Assembly (NCBI RefSeq): GCF_002854065.1
Contig: NZ_CP024147.1
Direction: 5' to 3' (one strand)
DNA length: 64,000 nt
Origin: Escherichia coli
GTDB lineage: Bacteria > Pseudomonadota > Gammaproteobacteria > Enterobacterales > Enterobacteriaceae
The notes below the pieces were generated by a model. It saw only the letters and a program-made list of their open reading frames with translations, was not told where the DNA came from and made no database searches. Made by a program: the position numbers and the translations under genes. Position 1 is the first letter of the stretch. Each line of letters opens with the position of its first letter. Shown piece by piece: positions 28,663-40,146 of this stretch.

Positions 28663-28775
28663 GTAAGGTACTGGAAATGTTGACCACTTAATCGGGACTG
28701 GTGTTATTATTGCCCGCTTATGTCGTCTGCATTGCACAGAGGACCCTTCAATGAACAGAGAAGAAATGCACTGTG

Positions 28776-30131
28776 ATGTTGTCAAAATTTAAGCGTAATA
28801 AACATCAACAACACCTTGCCCAACTACCCAAGATTTCTCAATCAGTTGATGATGTCGATTTCTTTTACGCTCCCGCCGACTTCCGGGAGACGCTGCTGGA
28901 AAAAATAGCCAGCGCGAAGCAGCGCATTTGCATTGTCGCCCTGTATCTCGAACAGGATGACGGTGGCAAAGGCATTCTGAACGCGTTGTATGAAGCTAAA
29001 AGGCAGCGTCCGGAACTGGATGTGCGGGTGCTGGTCGACTGGCATCGTGCACAACGTGGACGCATTGGCGCTGCGGCATCTAACACTAACGCTGACTGGT
29101 ACTGCCGCATGGCGCAGGAAAATCCGGGCGTAGATGTTCCGGTTTATGGCGTTCCAATCAATACCCGTGAAGCCCTTGGTGTTCTGCACTTTAAAGGCTT
29201 TATCATCGACGATAGCGTACTTTATAGCGGTGCCAGCCTGAACGATGTTTACCTGCATCAGCACGATAAATATCGCTACGACCGTTATCATCTTATCCGT
29301 AACCGTAAGATGTCAGACATTATGTTTGAATGGGTTACACAGAATATTATGAATGGCCGCGGCGTTAATCGTCTGGATGATGTTAATCGGCCAAAAAGCC
29401 CGGAAATCAAGAATGATATTCGTCTGTTCCGCCAGGAGCTGCGTGATGCCGCTTATCATTTCCAGGGCGATGCCGACAACGATCAGCTTTCCGTAACGCC
29501 GCTAGTGGGGCTGGGGAAATCGAGTCTGTTGAACAAGACCATTTTCCATCTTATGCCTTGTGCCGAGCAGAAACTAACCATCTGTACGCCATACTTCAAC
29601 CTGCCAGCAATCCTTGTGCGCAATATTATCCAGTTGCTGCGCGAAGGGAAAAAGGTCGAAATTATTGTTGGTGATAAAACCGCGAACGACTTCTACATTC
29701 CGGAAGATGAACCTTTCAAGATAATTGGCGCATTGCCTTATCTCTATGAGATCAATCTGCGTCGTTTCCTGAGCCGTTTGCAGTATTACGTCAATACTGA
29801 CCAGCTAGTGGTTCGGTTATGGAAAGATGACGACAACACCTATCACCTAAAAGGGATGTGGGTTGATGATAAGTGGATGTTGATCACTGGTAATAACCTG
29901 AACCCGCGCGCCTGGCGTCTGGATCTGGAAAACGCCATTTTGATCCACGATCCACAACTGGAGCTTGCGCCGCAGCGAGAGAAAGAACTGGAGCTGATCC
30001 GCGAGCATACCACCATCGTTAAGCACTATCGCGATCTGCAAAGTATTGCCGATTATCCGGTGAAGGTTCGTAAACTCATCCGCCGTTTGCGCCGTATCCG
30101 CATCGACCGATTAATTAGCCGCATCCTGTAA
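28776..30131 (+). CDS. pssA: CDP-diacylglycerol--serine O-phosphatidyltransferase (PLD-type)
   Basis: ORF 28773..30131; started at the ATG at 28776 (MLSKFKRNKHQQHLAQLPK...), 451 aa; two HKD-like motifs. Confidence 0.93.
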   Translation: MLSKFKRNKHQQHLAQLPKISQSVDDVDFFYAPADFRETLLEKIASAKQRICIVALYLEQDDGGKGILNALYEAKRQRPELDVRVLVDWHRAQRGRIGAAASNTNADWYCRMAQENPGVDVPVYGVPINTREALGVLHFKGFIIDDSVLYSGASLNDVYLHQHDKYRYDRYHLIRNRKMSDIMFEWVTQNIMNGRGVNRLDDVNRPKSPEIKNDIRLFRQELRDAAYHFQGDADNDQLSVTPLVGLGKSSLLNKTIFHLMPCAEQKLTICTPYFNLPAILVRNIIQLLREGKKVEIIVGDKTANDFYIPEDEPFKIIGALPYLYEINLRRFLSRLQYYVNTDQLVVRLWKDDDNTYHLKGMWVDDKWMLITGNNLNPRAWRLDLENAILIHDPQLELAPQREKELELIREHTTIVKHYRDLQSIADYPVKVRKLIRRLRRIRIDRLISRIL

Positions 30132-30135
30132 TCAC

Positions 30136-30164
30136 AACCCCGTCCTGTACGGGGTTTGTTTTTT
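30136..30164 (+). terminator. Rho-independent terminator after pssA
   Basis: AACCCCGT-CCTGT-ACGGGGTT hairpin followed by TGTTTTTT. Confidence 0.7.
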
Positions 30165-30176
30165 GGAGGCCATGTT

Positions 30177-30500
30177 TTGCGTATTCTTTTTGTCTGTTCG
30201 CTATTGTTACTTTCTGGATGCAGCCATATGGCTAACGATAGCTGGAGCGGGCAGGATAAAGCTCAACACTTTATCGCCTCGGCGATGCTTTCCGCCGCCG
30301 GAAATGAATATTCACAGCATCAGGGGATGAGCCGGGATCGCAGTGCCATGTTTGGATTGATGTTCTCTGTCAGTTTGGGGGCGTCAAAAGAGCTTTGGGA
30401 TAGCCGCCCCGAAGGGAGCGGCTGGAGCTGGAAGGATTTGGCCTGGGATGTCGCCGGTGCAAGCACCGGCTATACCGTCTGGCAACTGACCCGTCACTAA
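30177..30500 (+). CDS. yfiM: Lipoprotein YfiM
   Basis: ORF 30156..30500 trimmed to the TTG at 30177 ([18 protein letters not shown]..., lipobox LLSGC), 107 aa; GGAGG 7 nt upstream. Confidence 0.8.
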
Positions 30501-31795
30501 AGACGCATCCCCTTCCCTTTGCGATGTAGCATCAAAGAAACCAGAAACGCCACCACGGCCATCAAGGTCACATACCAGAAGAAGGCTGTTTCCATTCCTA
30601 TTGATTTCAGCGACAACGCTACGTACTCCGCCGAACCACCAAATATAGCATTAGCGACCGCATATGACAGACCAACGCCTAATGCGCGAACCTGTGCCGG
30701 GAACATCTCAGCCTTCAGTATTCCACTGATTGATGTATAAAAACTCACTATCAGCAGGGCACACATCACCAGACCAAAAGCGGCATAAGGCGAGGAAACG
30801 TTTTGCAATGCTGAGAGAATAGGAACGGTAAAAATGGCTGCCAGCGAACCGAAACATAACATTGAGGTACGGCGACCAATCTTATCCGACAGCGCGCCAA
30901 TGAGTGGTTGAATAAGCATGAATACAAACAATGCGGCAGTCATAATGCCACTCGCCACGTTGGCATGCATTCCCGCAGTATTTACCAGATACTTCTGCAT
31001 ATAAGTGGTGAAGGTATAGAAACAAAGGGAGCCCGCAGCGGTAAAACCGAGAACCATGATGAATGCACGGCGATTGCGCCATAATCCTTTCAGAGATCCA
31101 GCTTCTTTTAAAGCGCGCGTTTCTTGTTGCGAAGTTTCATCTAACTGACGACGTAACCACAACGCCACAACAGCTAACACAGCTCCTAACGCGAAAGGAA
31201 TACGCCATCCCCACTCTCTGAGTGCAGCGTCTTCCATGGTGTGTTGTAAAACCACGACAACCAGTAGGGCTAGCAGTTGTCCGCCGATCAACGTCACATA
31301 CTGAAATGATGCGTAAAAACCTTTGCGCCCTTCAACGGCAACTTCACTCATATAGGTGGCGCTGGTGCCATATTCTCCGCCAACGGATAATCCCTGAAAT
31401 AAACGCGCGAGAAGCAATAATGCCGGAGCCCACGTACCGATTGTTTCATAACCAGGCAAACAGGCGATTACCAGTGAGCCGAAACACATCATACACACCG
31501 ATAGCAGCATCGATTTTTTGCGACCATGTTTATCGGCTATGCGGCCAAATAGCCAACCGCCTATTGGGCGCATCAGGAATCCCGCAGCAAAAACACCTGC
31601 TGTTTGTAGTAGTTGAGTCGTCGTGTTCCCGGAAGGGAAGAAGATGTGGGCAAAGTAGAGTGAACAGAACGAGTAGACATAGAAATCGAACCACTCGACC
31701 AGATTACCTGAAGAGGCCCCCACAATCGCCCAAATGCGGCGACGAGTATCACTACTTGTCAGTTTGCTGTCTGCCGTTACAGTACTTTCAGCCAT
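30497..31795 (-). CDS. kgtP: Alpha-ketoglutarate permease (MFS transporter)
   Basis: ORF 30497..31897 trimmed to [26 protein letters not shown]..., 432 aa; MFS signatures. Confidence 0.93.
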
Positions 31796-31983
31796 GCCAT
31801 TATGTCTCCTGCCGTAATCCGATGCTTTTGTCGGTCGCTTTTGTTTATTTTTTTTGGTAAAGGAAATGTTATACATTTGTTGCACATCATTATGCAACCT
31901 TAACCATGAATTTAGTTAGCAGGAAAATGGTTATTGAGAAGCTTAAGGATAAATTTCTGGTAAGGAGAACACGTATGGAAGTA

Positions 31984-32065
31984 GGCAAGTTGGGGAAACC
32001 GTATCCGTTGCTGAATCTGGCATATGTGGGAGTATAAGACGCGCAGCGTCGCATCAGGCATTTTT
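31984..32065 (-). repeat. REP/BIME-like repetitive extragenic palindromic sequence (degenerate)
   Basis: Minus strand reads GCCTGATGCGACGCTGCGCGTCTTATAC...CTTGCCTAC, resembling the REP consensus; sits between the rrn terminator region and kgtP. Confidence 0.35.
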
Positions 32066-32118
32066 TTCTGCGCCAACGCAAAAAGACCATCCGTCAGGAT
32101 GGCCTTTCGCTTTATTTG

Positions 32119-32238
32119 ATGCCTGGCAGTTCCCTACTCTCGCATGGGGAGACCCCACACTACCATCGGCGCTACGGCGTTTCACTTCTGAGTTCGGCAT
32201 GGGGTCAGGTGGGACCACCGCGCTACGGCCGCCAGGCA
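32119..32238 (-). rRNA. rrfG: 5S ribosomal RNA
   Basis: 120-nt reverse-complement match to E. coli 5S rRNA (TGCCTGGCGGC...GGAACTGCCAGGCAT). Confidence 0.95.
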
Positions 32239-32330
32239 AATTCTGTTTTATCAGACCGCTTCTGCGTTCTGATTTAATCTGTATCAGGCTGAAAATCTTC
32301 TCTCATCCGCCAAAACAGCTTCGGCGTTGT

Positions 32331-35233
<2,903 letters not shown>

Positions 35234-35426
35234 TCACAACCCGAAGATGTTTCTTGCGACTCATCATCGTGTTGCGAAAATTTGAGAGACTCACGAACAA
35301 CTTTCGTTGTTCAGTGTTTCAATTTTCAGCTTGATCCAGATTTTTAAAGAGCAAATATCTCAAACATCACCCGAAGATGAGTTTTGAGATATTAAGGTCG
35401 GCGACTTTCACTCACAAACCAGCAAG

Positions 35427-35502
35427 TGGCGTCCCCTAGGGGATTCGAACCCCTGTTACCGCCGTGAAAGGGCGGTGTCCTGGGCCTCTAGACGAAGGGG
35501 AC
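35427..35502 (-). tRNA. gltW: tRNA-Glu (spacer tRNA of the rrn operon)
   Basis: 76-nt reverse-complement match to GTCCCCTTCGTCTAGAGGCCCAGGACACCGCCCTTTCACGGCGGTAACAGGGGTTCGAATCCCCTAGGGGACGCCA. Confidence 0.95.
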
Positions 35503-35587
35503 GTATCAGTCTGCTTCGCAAGACGCCTTGCTTTTCACTTTCTATCAGACAATCTGTGTGAGCACTGCAAAGAACGCTTCTTTAAGG

Positions 35588-37129
<1,542 letters not shown>

Positions 37130-37310
37130 AAAAGTTTGATGCTCAAAGAATTAAACTTCGTAATGAATTACGTGTTCACTCTTGAGACTTGGTATTCATT
37201 TTTCGTCTTGCGACGTTAAGAATCCGTATCTTCGAGTGCCCACACAGATTGTCTGATAAATTGTTAAAGAGCAGTGCCGCTTCGCTTTTTCTCAGCGGCG
37301 CGGGGTATGC

Positions 37311-37338
37311 ATAATACGCTTTCCCGCCACAGAGTCAA
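37311..37338 (-). promoter_or_regulatory. rrn P2 promoter (-35 TTGACT, 16-nt spacer, -10 TATTAT)
   Basis: Minus-strand GCTTGACTctgtggcgggaaagcgTATTATgcatacccc with GC-rich discriminator. Confidence 0.55.
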
Positions 37339-37429
37339 GCATTTATTTTTGCTTTCTCTACCGGAATTCTCAGGAGAACCCCGCTGACCCGGCGGCGTGT
37401 TTGCCGTTGTTCCGTGTCAGTGGTGGCGC

Positions 37430-37457
37430 ATTATAGGGAGTTATTCCGGCCTGACAA
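37430..37457 (-). promoter_or_regulatory. rrn P1 promoter (-35 TTGTCA, 16-nt spacer, -10 TATAAT, GCGCCACC discriminator) with AT-rich UP/Fis region upstream
   Basis: Minus-strand CTTGTCAGGCCGGAATAACTCCCTATAATGCGCCACCACTGA is the classic rrn P1 core; AT-rich tract 37460-37540 upstream. Confidence 0.65.
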
Positions 37458-37544
37458 GCGAAAAATATAAAAACTTTATCGTTCGCTCACTTTTCAGGCA
37501 AAACATCTTAAATATAGTCTTTTCCGTCTAACTTATAGACAAAA

Positions 37545-37570
37545 ACGAGCCCCGAAGGGCTCGTTTTATC
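37545..37570 (-). terminator. Rho-independent terminator of clpB
   Basis: GAGCCC-TTCG-GGGCTC hairpin followed by TTTTTGTC on the minus strand. Confidence 0.7.
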
Positions 37571-37572
37571 AT

Positions 37573-40146
37573 TTACTGGACGGCGACAATCCGGTCTTCA
37601 TTAACTTCCAGGCGAATCACTTTACCCGGAACCAATTCACCAGACAGTATTTGCTGTGCCAACGGGTTTTCGATCTGCTGCTGGATAGCACGTTTCAAAG
37701 GACGTGCACCATAGACTGGATCGTAACCGTTCTCGCTCAGCAGTTTCAGCGCCTCGTCAGAAATGTGGATTTCATAACCACGTTCTTCCAGACGTTTGTA
37801 CAGACGTTTCAACTGAATCTGCGCAATCGAGGCAATGTGCTGTTCGCCCAGCGGATGGAAGACCACCACTTCATCGATACGGTTAATGAACTCCGGACGG
37901 AAGTTATGGCTTACCACACCGAGCACCAGTTCTTTCATATGCGCATAATCCAGTTCACCGAAGCGTTCCTGAATCAAATCGGAACCGAGGTTAGAGGTCA
38001 TAATGACAACCGTATTACGGAAGTCGACCGTTCTCCCCTGCCCGTCAGTCAGACGCCCATCATCCAGTACCTGCAACAGAATGTTGAAGACATCCGGATG
38101 CGCTTTTTCCACTTCATCCAGCAGGATAACGGAATACGGACGACGACGCACAGCTTCGGTCAGGTAGCCACCTTCTTCATAACCAACATATCCCGGAGGC
38201 GCACCAACCAGACGAGACACCGAGTGTTTCTCCATAAACTCGGACATATCGATACGGACCATCGCCTCGTCGCTATCAAACATAAAGTTCGCCAGCGCCT
38301 TACAAAGCTCAGTTTTCCCCACACCAGTTGGGCCGAGGAACAGGAATGAACCAATCGGGCGATTTGGATCCGCCAGCCCCGCACGGCTACGACGAATAGC
38401 GTTAGATACCGCATCAACCGCTTCGTTCTGACCAATAACGCGATGGTGCAGTTCTTGCTCCATACGCAGCAGTTTTTCGCGCTCGCTTTCCATCATGCGA
38501 GAAACCGGAATCCCCGTCCAACGCGCCAGCACTTCAGCAATTTCGGCGTCGGTCACTTTATTACGCAACAGACGCATAGTTTTGCCTTCGAGCTGCGTTG
38601 CGGCTTCCAGTTGCTTTTCCAGCTCCGGGATTTTGCCGTATTGCAGTTCAGACATCCGCGCCAGGTCACCCACACGGCGAGCCTGTTCAATAGCGATTTT
38701 CGCCTGTTCCAGTTCCGCTTTAATGGTCTGCGTACCAGAAAGCGATGCTTTCTCTGCTTTCCACTCTTCTTCTAACTCGGAGTACTGACGTTCTTTGTCG
38801 CTCAGTTCTTCGTTGAGCATATCCAGACGTTTTTTACTGGCTTCATCAGACTCTTTCATTAACGCCTGTTGTTCCAGTTTGAGCTGGATGATACGGCGAT
38901 CGAGTCGGTCGAGTTCTTCTGGTTTTGAGTCAATCTGCATACGAATGCTGGATGCTGCTTCATCGATCAGGTCGATGGCTTTATCCGGCAGCTGACGGTC
39001 AGCAATGTAGCGATGAGACAACGTCGCCGCTGCAACAATTGCCGGGTCAGTAATTTGCACATGGTGGTGCAATTCGTAACGTTCTTTCAGGCCACGTAGA
39101 ATCGCAATGGTATCTTCAACAGAAGGCTCGGCAACAAACACTTTCTGGAAACGACGTTCCAGCGCAGCATCTTTTTCGATGTACTGGCGATATTCGTCAA
39201 GCGTCGTGGCACCTACGCAGTGCAATTCACCACGCGCCAGCGCCGGTTTCAGCATGTTTCCGGCGTCCATTGCGCCATCGGCTTTACCCGCGCCGACCAT
39301 GGTATGTAATTCGTCGATAAACAGGATGACGTTGCCTTCCTGTTTGGCAAGATCGTTAAGCACGCCTTTTAAACGTTCTTCAAACTCACCGCGATATTTC
39401 GCCCCAGCCACCAGCGCGCCCATATCCAGCGCCAGTACGCGGCGGCCTTTCAACCCTTCCGGCACTTCGCCGTTGATAATACGCTGCGCCAGACCTTCAA
39501 CGATGGCAGTTTTACCGACGCCGGGTTCACCAATCAGTACCGGATTATTTTTAGTACGACGTTGCAGCACCTGAATGGTACGGCGAATTTCTTCATCACG
39601 ACCAATCACCGGATCGAGTTTGCCCTGTTCGGCTCGTTCGGTAAGGTCGATGGTATATTTTTTCAAAGCCTGACGTTGGTCTTCAGCACCTTGATCGTTC
39701 ACGCTTTCACCTCCACGCATTTGTTCAATCGCTTGAGTAATGTTGGCGGTGGTCGCCCCTGCTGCTTTCAGGATGTCGGCCAGCGTGCCGCGAGACTCAA
39801 GTGCCGCCAGAACGAACAGTTCTGACGAGATAAAGTTATCACCACGTTTTTGCGCCAGCTTGTCGCAAAGATTAAGAACGCGCACCAGATCCTGTGATGG
39901 CTGGACATCACCACCAGTACCTTCAACCTGCGGTAAACGATTTAATGCCTGATTGATATCTGTGCGCAACTGGCCAGCATTTATGCCAGCTGATGTTAAC
40001 AAAGGACTAACCGAACCCCCTTCCTGATTCAGCAGGGCGCTCATTAAATGAAGTGGTTCGATGAATTGGTTGTCGTGCCCGAGTGCAAGTGATTGGGCAT
40101 CGGCAAGAGCAAGCTGGAATTTATTAGTAAGACGATCCAGACGCAT
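37573..40146 (-). CDS. clpB: Chaperone ClpB (AAA+ disaggregase)
   Basis: ORF 37573..40158 trimmed to [27 protein letters not shown]..., 857 aa; two Walker A sites ([16 protein letters not shown]). In-frame GTG at 39700-39702 (Val149) corresponds to the known internal start for the short ClpB isoform. Confidence 0.96.

What the first reader, a model, noticed from the sequence alone, without database searches (positions are those of the whole stretch)
31975..32065. 20-codon ORF with a strong SD embedded in a REP/BIME-like repeat between kgtP and the rrn terminator
TAAGGAG is followed after 7 nt by ATG GAA GTA GGC AAG TTG GGG AAA CCG TAT CCG TTG CTG AAT CTG GCA TAT GTG GGA GTA TAA (MEVGKLGKPYPLLNLAYVGV*, 31975-32037). 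The region overlaps a degenerate REP-like palindrome, and REP elements commonly create spurious ORFs, so I rate this low. The SD quality and spacing are nevertheless unusually good for a chance ORF, and the location upstream of kgtP could in principle make it a leader peptide.
Basis: seen in the sequence. Interest (0 to 1): 0.25.

Follow-up and report, generated by a model that had tools for sequence, protein, structure and literature searches.

The report
Known small gene yfiS, yjaB-derived
The 20-codon reading frame is the already annotated and experimentally detected E. coli small-protein gene yfiS, and its sequence turns out to be a leftover copy of the tail end of the acetyltransferase gene yjaB that lies beside another ribosomal RNA operon.

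Summary
TAAGGAG (31961-31967), a 7-nt spacer, and ATG..TAA (31975-32037, + strand) encode MEVGKLGKPYPLLNLAYVGV.

This ORF is already known. It is yfiS (b4783, UniProt YFIS_ECOLI), annotated at the same place in K-12 MG1655 with an identical peptide. RiboReport lists it among the small ORFs that Weaver et al. 2019 found by initiation-site ribosome profiling and confirmed by western blot.

The leader-peptide idea fails because kgtP is on the opposite strand. yfiS diverges from kgtP and converges on rrnG. The REP overlap is real but small: a single truncated REP (32034-32060) supplies only the stop codon, and it is not a BIME.

I found no mention of the following in the searchable literature:
- yfiS codons 6-19 are 40/42 nt identical to the 3' end of yjaB, a GNAT lysine acetyltransferase next to rrnE.
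- The whole block (yjaB tail, spacer, REP, rrn terminator, 5S) is collinear between the rrnE and rrnG distal flanks.
- The SD and ATG lie in the decayed part of the copy.

The ORF is intact in 14 of 14 sampled E. coli alleles. It is broken or extended in two sister Escherichia lineages.

Function is unknown. It is most likely a translated gene remnant.

The parts
31961..31967 (+). Shine-Dalgarno TAAGGAG, 7 nt before the ATG
   Evidence: The core AGGAG is kept in 14/14 E. coli alleles and in the cryptic-clade Escherichia. It is degenerate in E. albertii (GTGAGATGA). It aligns to yjaB codons GTT ACG GGA in the decayed part of the copy.
31975..32037 (+). yfiS ORF, 20 codons plus TAA (MEVGKLGKPYPLLNLAYVGV)
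   Evidence: The peptide is identical to K-12 b4783 / YP_010051193.1 at NC_000913.3 2725925-2725987. UniProt YFIS_ECOLI. Listed among the western-blot-validated sORFs found by TIS profiling.
31990..32031 (+). Core copied from the 3' end of yjaB (codons 6-19 of yfiS correspond to YjaB 132-145, LGKPYPLLNLAYVG)
   Evidence: 40/42 nt identical to yjaB. 47/53 nt by pairwise blastn, E=1e-13. A second genomic match sits inside yjaB in E. coli genomes. tblastn of YjaB gives 17/21 aa.
32034..32060 (-). Single truncated REP (the CAGGCCTAC arm is missing); it provides the TAA stop of the K-12-type allele
   Evidence: Comparison with REPs of the malE-malF and other K-12 intergenic regions. It is the only REP core in the 64-kb window. 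Phylogroup-D-like, E. albertii and cryptic-clade alleles carry the full REP plus 31-43 nt more. IS1397 is inserted in the REP and an IS110-family element at the end of the ORF in some strains.
32080..32112 (.). rrnG distal terminator hairpin (CCATCCGTCAGGATGG), T-rich on both sides, so it probably also ends the yfiS transcript
   Evidence: Terminator scan hit on the + strand at 32087-32102. Hairpin appears in the MFE fold. The same hairpin variants occur at rrnE and rrnG in different strains.
32121..32236 (-). 5S rRNA rrfG (end of the rrnG operon, convergent with yfiS)
   Evidence: Rfam RF00001, 92.8 bits. K-12 annotation.
30497..31795 (-). kgtP (alpha-ketoglutarate:H+ symporter), divergent from yfiS
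   Evidence: ORF list. K-12 and RefSeq annotations.
31864..31925 (.). kgtP-upstream block conserved across Enterobacteriaceae genera, probably the kgtP promoter/operator. It is not part of the yjaB-derived segment.
   Evidence: Upstream regions compared across Citrobacter, Enterobacter, Kluyvera, Kosakonia, Pseudocitrobacter and Klebsiella loci.

Best explanation
The ORF is yfiS, a real, translated 20-residue small-protein gene of E. coli. It is not a leader peptide and not a pure REP artefact.

Origin (largely shown here):
- The DNA between kgtP and rrnG is a paralogous copy of the distal flank of another rRNA operon, rrnE.
- That flank consists of the last 20-26 codons of the GNAT acetyltransferase gene yjaB, a short spacer, a REP, the rrn terminator and the 5S gene.
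- The part of the copy nearest the rRNA operon has been kept, or re-made, almost identical to yjaB. I infer this happened by gene conversion spreading out of the rrn operons.
- The far end of the copy has decayed. In that decayed part, mutations produced a strong Shine-Dalgarno sequence and an ATG in the yjaB reading frame.
- In K-12-type strains a 43-nt deletion fused the frame to a truncated REP, whose TAAG supplies the stop codon.

Expression (inferred): a transcript leaving the kgtP-divergent region on the + strand is translated from 31975 and ends at the bidirectional rrnG terminator.

Function (inferred, least certain): the peptide is the final strand region of a GNAT fold without the rest of the enzyme. 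It is confined to E. coli in this form. Most likely it is a translated gene remnant, a young proto-gene with little or no function of its own.
For: Identity:
- K-12 annotates yfiS at the syntenic site with the same peptide.
- The exact peptide is named Protein YfiS / YFIS_ECOLI in public databases.

Translation:
- RiboReport Table 6 lists yfiS (smORFer TIS reads 33, DeepRibo rank 61) among 31 sORFs validated by epitope tagging and western blot by Weaver et al. 2019.
- The method is described.

Origin:
- A second match to the ORF lies inside yjaB in nearly every E. coli genome (median 2 places per genome).
- YjaB ends ...EVDDLGKPYPLLNLAYVGA*.
- Identity to the yjaB/rrnE flank by segment: 40/42 nt in the ORF core, 23/26 in the REP, 14/16 in the spacer, 17/18 in the start of the 5S. 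It is only 12/27 across the SD region and 7/15 in codons 1-5.
- In strains without yjaA, yjaB lies 115-128 nt from rrfE, the same architecture as yfiS-rrfG.
- One yfiS allele (WCHEC000837) shares even the spacer ...GGAATAAGCTGCCCCCTATCGTGCCTGCGTAAGCT... with the rrnE flank of another strain.
- Citrobacter amalonaticus has an older remnant, LRVTGRAEVDDPGRPYPLLHLRYQGA, at the same site with no ATG or SD.

Restriction:
- The ORF is 17-20 codons in 14/14 E. coli alleles.
- It is 12 codons in a cryptic-clade Escherichia (kgtP 91% identical in nt) and at least 56 codons with a weak SD in E. albertii.
Against: - I could not read the primary table or blot for yfiS. The mBio paper is not held, and the preprint text uses ORF numbers. 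The translation evidence is therefore second-hand.
- No promoter for the + strand was identified. The scan gives only a 9/12 site inside kgtP at 31756-31783.
- pN/pS among twelve 20-codon alleles is 0.25. Codons 12-18 carry four synonymous and no non-synonymous variants. That could mean purifying selection on the peptide, which would contradict a functionless remnant. Conversion from yjaB, which is itself under selection, would give the same pattern.
- Gene conversion is inferred from mosaic alleles. It was not tested with a formal method, and only one same-genome pair of loci was compared.
Confidence: 0.8

Rival explanations
1. YfiS is a functional micro-protein maintained by selection in E. 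coli. Because it reproduces the C-terminal strand region of YjaB, it could act by mimicry, binding YjaB or a YjaB partner or substrate and modulating lysine acetylation.
For: - The ORF, AGGAG and ATG are intact in 14/14 sampled alleles despite three different 3'-end structures and an in-frame 9-nt deletion.
- pN/pS is 0.25.
- The protein is reported as detectable by western blot.
- There is precedent for small proteins derived from C-terminal domains that inhibit their full-length parent (Rpn_S; abstract of PMC10327210 seen).
Against: - The low pN/pS is expected without selection if the segment is repeatedly overwritten from yjaB.
- Non-synonymous variants are common (G4S, K5N, P9T, Y10H, P11S, G19R, V20A/G).
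- The ORF is not conserved in sister Escherichia lineages.
- With 8 invariant SD/ATG bases and 14% segregating sites nearby, conservation is not significant (my estimate).
- No interaction or phenotype data exist.
Confidence: 0.13
2. Translation of the ORF matters in cis rather than through the peptide. Ribosomes on a + strand transcript could influence the divergent kgtP promoter region, or collide with or shield read-through from the convergent rrnG operon at the shared terminator.
For: - The ORF lies 180 nt from the kgtP start codon on the opposite strand and about 50 nt from a hairpin that looks bidirectional.
- The neighbouring small ORF pssL, from the same study, does affect its downstream gene.
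Against: - There is no downstream gene on the + strand.
- The ORF does not overlap the conserved kgtP-upstream block.
- No structure stands out: the fold z-score is -0.88.
- Nothing here tests it.
Confidence: 0.04
3. The ORF is a chance ORF created by repeat and remnant DNA and is not really translated. The published signal would then be an artefact, for example antibiotic-induced initiation or mis-targeting of the tag to the near-identical yjaB tail.
For: - The SD+ATG motif frequency is at chance level in the window.
- Weaver et al. themselves warn that the inhibitors can enhance initiation at sites not normally used.
- The last 42 nt of yfiS are 95% identical to yjaB, so one recombineering arm is ambiguous.
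Against: - The candidates also had to show elongating-ribosome density in untreated cells, and tagged strains were verified by sequencing.
- The start region itself is unique (7/15 and 12/27 identity to yjaB), so initiation reads map unambiguously.
- The downstream arm differs from the K-12 yjaB flank.
- A YjaB fusion would be about 16 kDa larger.
Confidence: 0.03

Closest known systems
yfiS (b4783, YP_010051193.1, UniProt YFIS_ECOLI), E. coli K-12 small protein from Weaver, Mohammad, Buskirk & Storz 2019
   Same: Same locus between kgtP and rrfG, same strand, same length and an identical peptide. The DNA is 98% identical across the intergenic region.
   Different: Nothing of substance. The window strain differs from K-12 at two synonymous sites in the ORF and one base in the SD (GGAGA versus GGAGG).
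yjaB (b4012), peptidyl-lysine N-acetyltransferase of the GNAT family, NMR structure 2KCW
   Same: YfiS residues 6-19 match YjaB residues 132-145 (LGKPYPLLNLAYVG). The match is 40/42 nt, and the downstream context is the same (REP, rrn terminator, 5S).
   Different: YfiS has none of the GNAT domain: there is no Pfam hit for the 20- or 43-residue translations. It starts at a new ATG that aligns to the YjaB Ser128 codon. It is a fragment, not an enzyme.
REP / BIME elements of E. coli
   Same: About 27 nt downstream of the ORF match the REP consensus seen in malE-malF and other K-12 intergenic regions. IS1397, a REP-targeting element, has inserted in it in some strains, and an IS110-family element lies at the end of the ORF in others (the target preference is from my own knowledge).
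   Different: There is one copy only, one arm is deleted, and it has no partner REP. It is therefore not a BIME, and it contributes only the stop codon to the ORF.
Leader peptides and upstream ORFs such as pssL, in the same window
   Same: It is a short ORF with a good SD in an intergenic region next to a transporter gene.
   Different: It is on the opposite strand to kgtP and has no gene downstream on its own strand.

Membership tests
yfiS / YfiS small protein of E. coli | Located between kgtP and rrfG, on the strand opposite to both | tested here: met
   K-12 annotation has yfiS at 2725925-2725987 (+) between kgtP (-) and rrfG (-). The window ORF is in the same position.
yfiS / YfiS small protein of E. 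coli | Peptide MEVGKLGKPYPLLNLAYVGV | tested here: met
   The two translations are identical. An exact-sequence look-up returns 'Protein YfiS'.
yfiS / YfiS small protein of E. coli | Translated in vivo (initiation-site peak, tagged protein on western blot) | not testable with these tools
   Taken from the literature: RiboReport Table 6 and its text, citing Weaver et al. 2019. The primary table and blot could not be read.
REP element | Match to the approximately 35-nt REP consensus | tested here: met
   TGCCTGATGCGACGCT-GCGCGTCTTAT matches TGCCTGATGCGACGCTGACGCGTCTTATCAGGCCTAC over 27 nt with one 1-nt gap.
REP element | Complete imperfect palindrome with both arms | tested here: not met
   The CAGGCCTAC arm is replaced by ACTCCCAC in the window and in K-12. 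The full form is present in 118UI, E. albertii and the cryptic-clade locus.
BIME | Two or more REPs in alternating orientation | tested here: not met
   There is only one REP core in the whole 64-kb window.
Leader peptide or attenuator of kgtP | Encoded on the same strand as, and upstream within the transcript of, the regulated gene | tested here: not met
   kgtP is on the minus strand and the ORF on the plus strand.
GNAT acetyltransferase (YjaB family) | GNAT domain (Pfam Acetyltransf_1/7/10) | tested here: not met
   YjaB hits PF13673, PF13508 and PF00583 over residues 34-130. The 20- and 43-residue translations from the window hit nothing at E<=1.
GNAT acetyltransferase (YjaB family) | Sequence homology to YjaB | tested here: met
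   Homology covers the last approximately 20 residues only: 17/21 aa by tblastn and 47/53 nt by blastn. It is a gene fragment, not a family member.

The most novel reading that the evidence does not exclude
YfiS is a small protein born from a gene fragment and kept in E. coli. The tail of the acetyltransferase YjaB was copied to a second rRNA-operon flank. It is kept YjaB-like by rrn-driven gene conversion, and a new SD and ATG made it expressible. The free C-terminal strand peptide would then bind YjaB, or whatever the YjaB tail contacts, and tune lysine acetylation.
Probability: 0.07. Interest if true: 0.6.

Novelty: already known. Interest (0 to 1): 0.25.

Why it matters
The ORF itself adds nothing new. 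It is already an annotated gene, and a published study reports it as validated by western blot.

The origin is the useful part. A small protein listed as validated but of unknown function is a re-expressed fragment of a neighbouring-type enzyme gene, carried on a duplicated rRNA-operon flank. This has three consequences:
- It gives a concrete example of gene birth from a fragment rather than from non-coding DNA.
- It warns that conservation and dN/dS statistics for such ORFs can be inflated by conversion from a selected paralogue.
- It suggests one specific, testable partner, YjaB, for a protein that currently has no lead.

Tried and rejected
1. A 13/13-nt match of window 31923-31935 (GAAAATGGTTATT) to the start of yjaB suggested an internally deleted full-length copy. 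I rejected this: 17 of 300 shuffles score as well. The segment also belongs to a kgtP-upstream block conserved in genera that lack the remnant.

2. Extending the yjaB homology 90 nt upstream of the ATG gives only weak support (13-82 of 1000 shuffles reach the score), and it runs into the same conserved block. I therefore claim only 20-26 codons.

3. A BLAST search of a 61-nt segment carrying the full REP against all E. coli genomes, meant to count REP copies, found only the 194 genomes with that allele. Short repeats fall below the E-value limit in 28 Gb. I verified the REP against the malE-malF and other K-12 REPs instead.

4. The K-12 feature table as returned lists no REP features anywhere, so their absence at this locus is uninformative.

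5. The primary paper (mBio 2019), the EcoSal small-proteome review and supplementary tables were not available. The preprint text does not name yfiS.

6. The promoter scan found no convincing + strand promoter upstream of the ORF. A literature search for TSS data did not reach a usable table.

7. Rfam shows nothing but rRNA, tRNA and StyR-44 in 30000-38000. The RNA fold of 31940-32125 is unremarkable, z = -0.88.

8. Searches for papers linking yfiS or kgtP with yjaB found none.

Full report
**What is there**

The window is E. coli DNA. On the + strand, TAAGGAG (31961-31967) is followed after 7 nt by ATG (31975). Twenty codons then end in TAA (32035-32037), giving MEVGKLGKPYPLLNLAYVGV.

The ORF lies in the 325-nt gap between kgtP (30497-31795, minus strand) and the 5S rRNA gene of an rRNA operon (32121-32236, minus strand; 23S and 16S follow). 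This is the K-12 rrnG arrangement. The ORF therefore runs away from kgtP and towards the end of rrnG. The frame is open upstream to an ATG at 31906, giving 43 codons.

The SD+ATG motif is not statistically unusual by itself. AAGGAG-N5-9-ATG occurs twice in the window against 2.24 expected.

**It is a known gene**

The K-12 MG1655 RefSeq record annotates yfiS (b4783, YP_010051193.1) at 2725925-2725987, between kgtP and rrfG on the + strand. Its translation is identical to the window ORF, and the whole intergenic region is 98% identical. The exact peptide is in public protein collections as 'Protein YfiS', UniRef YFIS_ECOLI.

RiboReport (PMC8921622) lists yfiS among 31 small ORFs discovered by initiation-site ribosome profiling and validated by epitope tagging and western blot. 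It gives smORFer TIS reads of 33 and a DeepRibo rank of 61. Its reference 20 is Weaver, Mohammad, Buskirk & Storz, mBio 2019.

The preprint of that study describes the criteria:
- a start-codon peak above 5 rpm with retapamulin or Onc112;
- elongating-ribosome density in untreated cells;
- correct peak spacing;
- chromosomal SPA tagging verified by sequencing.

I could not read the table or blot that shows yfiS itself. The translation evidence is therefore second-hand.

**The REP**

Immediately after the ORF, the reverse complement of 32034-32060 reads TGCCTGATGCGACGCT-GCGCGTCTTAT. This matches the REP in the malE-malF intergenic region and several others in K-12 (TGCCTGATGCGACGCTGACGCGTCTTATCAGGCCTAC). 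At that point the yfiS copy is cut off and continues ACTCCCAC.

It is the only REP core in the 64-kb window. It is a single truncated REP and not a BIME. It contributes only the TAA stop and one base of the last sense codon.

Some E. coli strains (for example 118UI), E. albertii and a cryptic-clade Escherichia carry the complete REP plus 31-43 additional bases between ORF and REP. The K-12-type arrangement is therefore a deletion that fused the frame to the REP.

In other strains IS1397 sits inside the REP and an IS110-family element lies at the end of the ORF. That these elements prefer REP targets is from my own knowledge.

**Where the coding sequence comes from**

A sensitive search with 96 nt around the ORF found two places in a typical E. 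coli genome. The second place is inside yjaB, a GNAT lysine acetyltransferase gene next to the rrnE operon. YjaB ends ...GRSEVDDLGKPYPLLNLAYVGA*.

Pairwise, 47 of 53 nt are identical (E = 1e-13), and tblastn gives 17/21 residues.

The key observation came from strains in which yjaA is absent. There yjaB lies 115-128 nt from the 5S gene of rrnE, which is exactly the yfiS-rrfG architecture. About half of E. coli genomes lose similarity to K-12 five bases before the yjaB stop, and all three that I examined are of this type.

Aligning the two kinds of locus shows one collinear block: yjaB tail, short spacer, REP, rrn terminator hairpin, 5S. Identity of the window to the yjaB/rrnE flank, by segment:

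| Segment | Identical nt |
|---|---|
| ORF codons 6-19 | 40/42 |
| REP | 23/26 |
| Spacer | 14/16 |
| Start of 5S | 17/18 |
| ORF codons 1-5 | 7/15 |
| SD region | 12/27 |

One yfiS allele (WCHEC000837 and ST2747, 17 codons) shares even the spacer sequence with the rrnE flank of another strain. The four terminator-hairpin variants seen at rrnG in different strains also occur at rrnE.

Citrobacter amalonaticus carries an older-looking remnant at the same site, LRVTGRAEVDDPGRPYPLLHLRYQGA. It matches YjaB 122-147 at 18/26 residues and has no ATG or SD. Other genera in the kgtP-anchored sample show no remnant.

My reading is as follows:
- The rrnG distal flank is an old copy of the rrnE distal flank that included the last roughly 26 codons of yjaB.
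- Exchange between the rRNA operons has repeatedly re-copied the part nearest the operon.
- The far end drifted, and an SD and an ATG arose in it, in frame with the yjaB tail.

The collinear homology is shown. Gene conversion as the homogenising process is inferred from the identity step at 31990 and from the mosaic alleles.

**Conservation**

I sampled alleles at even steps down the identity ranking of 5,426 complete genomes and fetched twelve of them. With the window and K-12 this makes 14 E. coli alleles. All have AGGAG, the ATG and an open frame of 17-20 codons. Variation includes:
- G4S, K5N, P9T, Y10H, P11S, G19R and V20A/G;
- an in-frame 9-nt deletion;
- three different 3' ends.

A 2-nt indel between the SD and the ATG in B2-type strains breaks the 43-codon extension, so only the 20-codon frame is common to all.

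Outside E. coli proper the ORF is not kept. A genome labelled E. coli but with kgtP only 91% identical in nt (as distant as E. albertii) has a 1-nt deletion giving 12 codons. E. albertii has lost the stop (at least 56 codons) and most of the SD.

Among the twelve 20-codon alleles pN/pS is 0.25, and pS is a very high 0.23. The ORF has 16 segregating sites in 60 nt, against 22 in 161 nt of upstream intergenic DNA.

Taken at face value that suggests purifying selection. However, an ORF that is repeatedly overwritten from a selected paralogue would show the same excess of synonymous differences. I therefore treat it as inconclusive.

**How it most likely works**

- Shown: the ORF, its SD, the truncated REP, the terminator hairpin, and the homology to yjaB and the rrnE flank.
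- From the literature: it is translated.
- Inferred: a + strand transcript from the kgtP-divergent region ends at the rrnG terminator hairpin, which is T-rich on both sides. No convincing + strand promoter was found; there is only a 9/12 match inside kgtP.

The peptide corresponds to the end of the GNAT fold. By general GNAT topology this is the last strand or strands, and YjaB has an NMR structure, 2KCW. The peptide contains no GNAT domain.

I think the most likely state is a translated gene remnant with little or no function of its own (about 0.6 within the overall picture). A functional micro-protein, possibly acting on YjaB by mimicry, is the main alternative. A cis effect on kgtP or rrnG, or no real translation, are minor ones.

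**Comparison with the known, and novelty**

As an object the finding is already known: it is yfiS. It is not a kgtP leader peptide because it is on the wrong strand. It is not a BIME. It is not a GNAT family member because it is only a fragment.

I found no paper that mentions the yjaB origin or the paralogy of the two rrn flanks. That part appears to be new, within the limits of the searchable library.

**Verdict**

The feature is already known. Interest is low to moderate, raised slightly by the origin story and by the caution it implies for conservation-based calls on small ORFs.

Noticed in passing
window 28751-28792 (+): pssL (b4782, MNREEMHCDVVKI) is present and identical to K-12. It overlaps the start of pssA. 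It is another small ORF from the same 2019 study, reported there to affect pssA-lacZ expression.
   Followed up: partly
L096 8234-9123 (K-12 rrnE flank); L098, L099, L101: yjaA is present in some E. coli and absent in others. About 2,830 of 5,423 genomes diverge from K-12 five bases before the yjaB stop. Three of three examined have the 5S gene 115-128 nt after yjaB. The YjaB C-terminus differs accordingly (YVGA, YVGV, YVGE).
   Followed up: partly
L087 and L088 from about 555; L086 and L095 from about 591 (downstream of yfiS): IS1397 is inserted in the REP that follows yfiS in some E. coli strains, and a frameshifted IS110-family element lies at the end of the ORF in others. In the IS110-bearing strains the ORF ends YVGA*, like yjaB.
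   Followed up: no
window about 31864-31925: A block upstream of kgtP is conserved across many Enterobacteriaceae genera: AAATGTTATAYAWTTGTTAT, a GTGA..TCAC inverted repeat, and TTTTAATTAGCAGG. It looks like the kgtP promoter plus an operator. I could not name a regulator.
   Followed up: no
window 32080-32112 and the equivalent positions in L084-L101: The rrn distal terminator hairpin occurs in at least four stem/loop variants among strains. The same variants appear at both rrnG and rrnE, consistent with exchange between rRNA operons.
   Followed up: partly
L003 (NZ_JAATUR010000003.1): A genome labelled Escherichia coli strain SCPM-O-B-8794 has kgtP only 91% identical in nt to the window, about as distant as E. 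albertii. It is probably a cryptic Escherichia clade rather than E. coli proper.
   Followed up: partly
window 31890-32090 (-) and 31912-32076 (-): Two antisense ORFs of 66 and 54 codons overlap yfiS on the minus strand. I did not look for evidence of expression, and they are probably chance ORFs.
   Followed up: no
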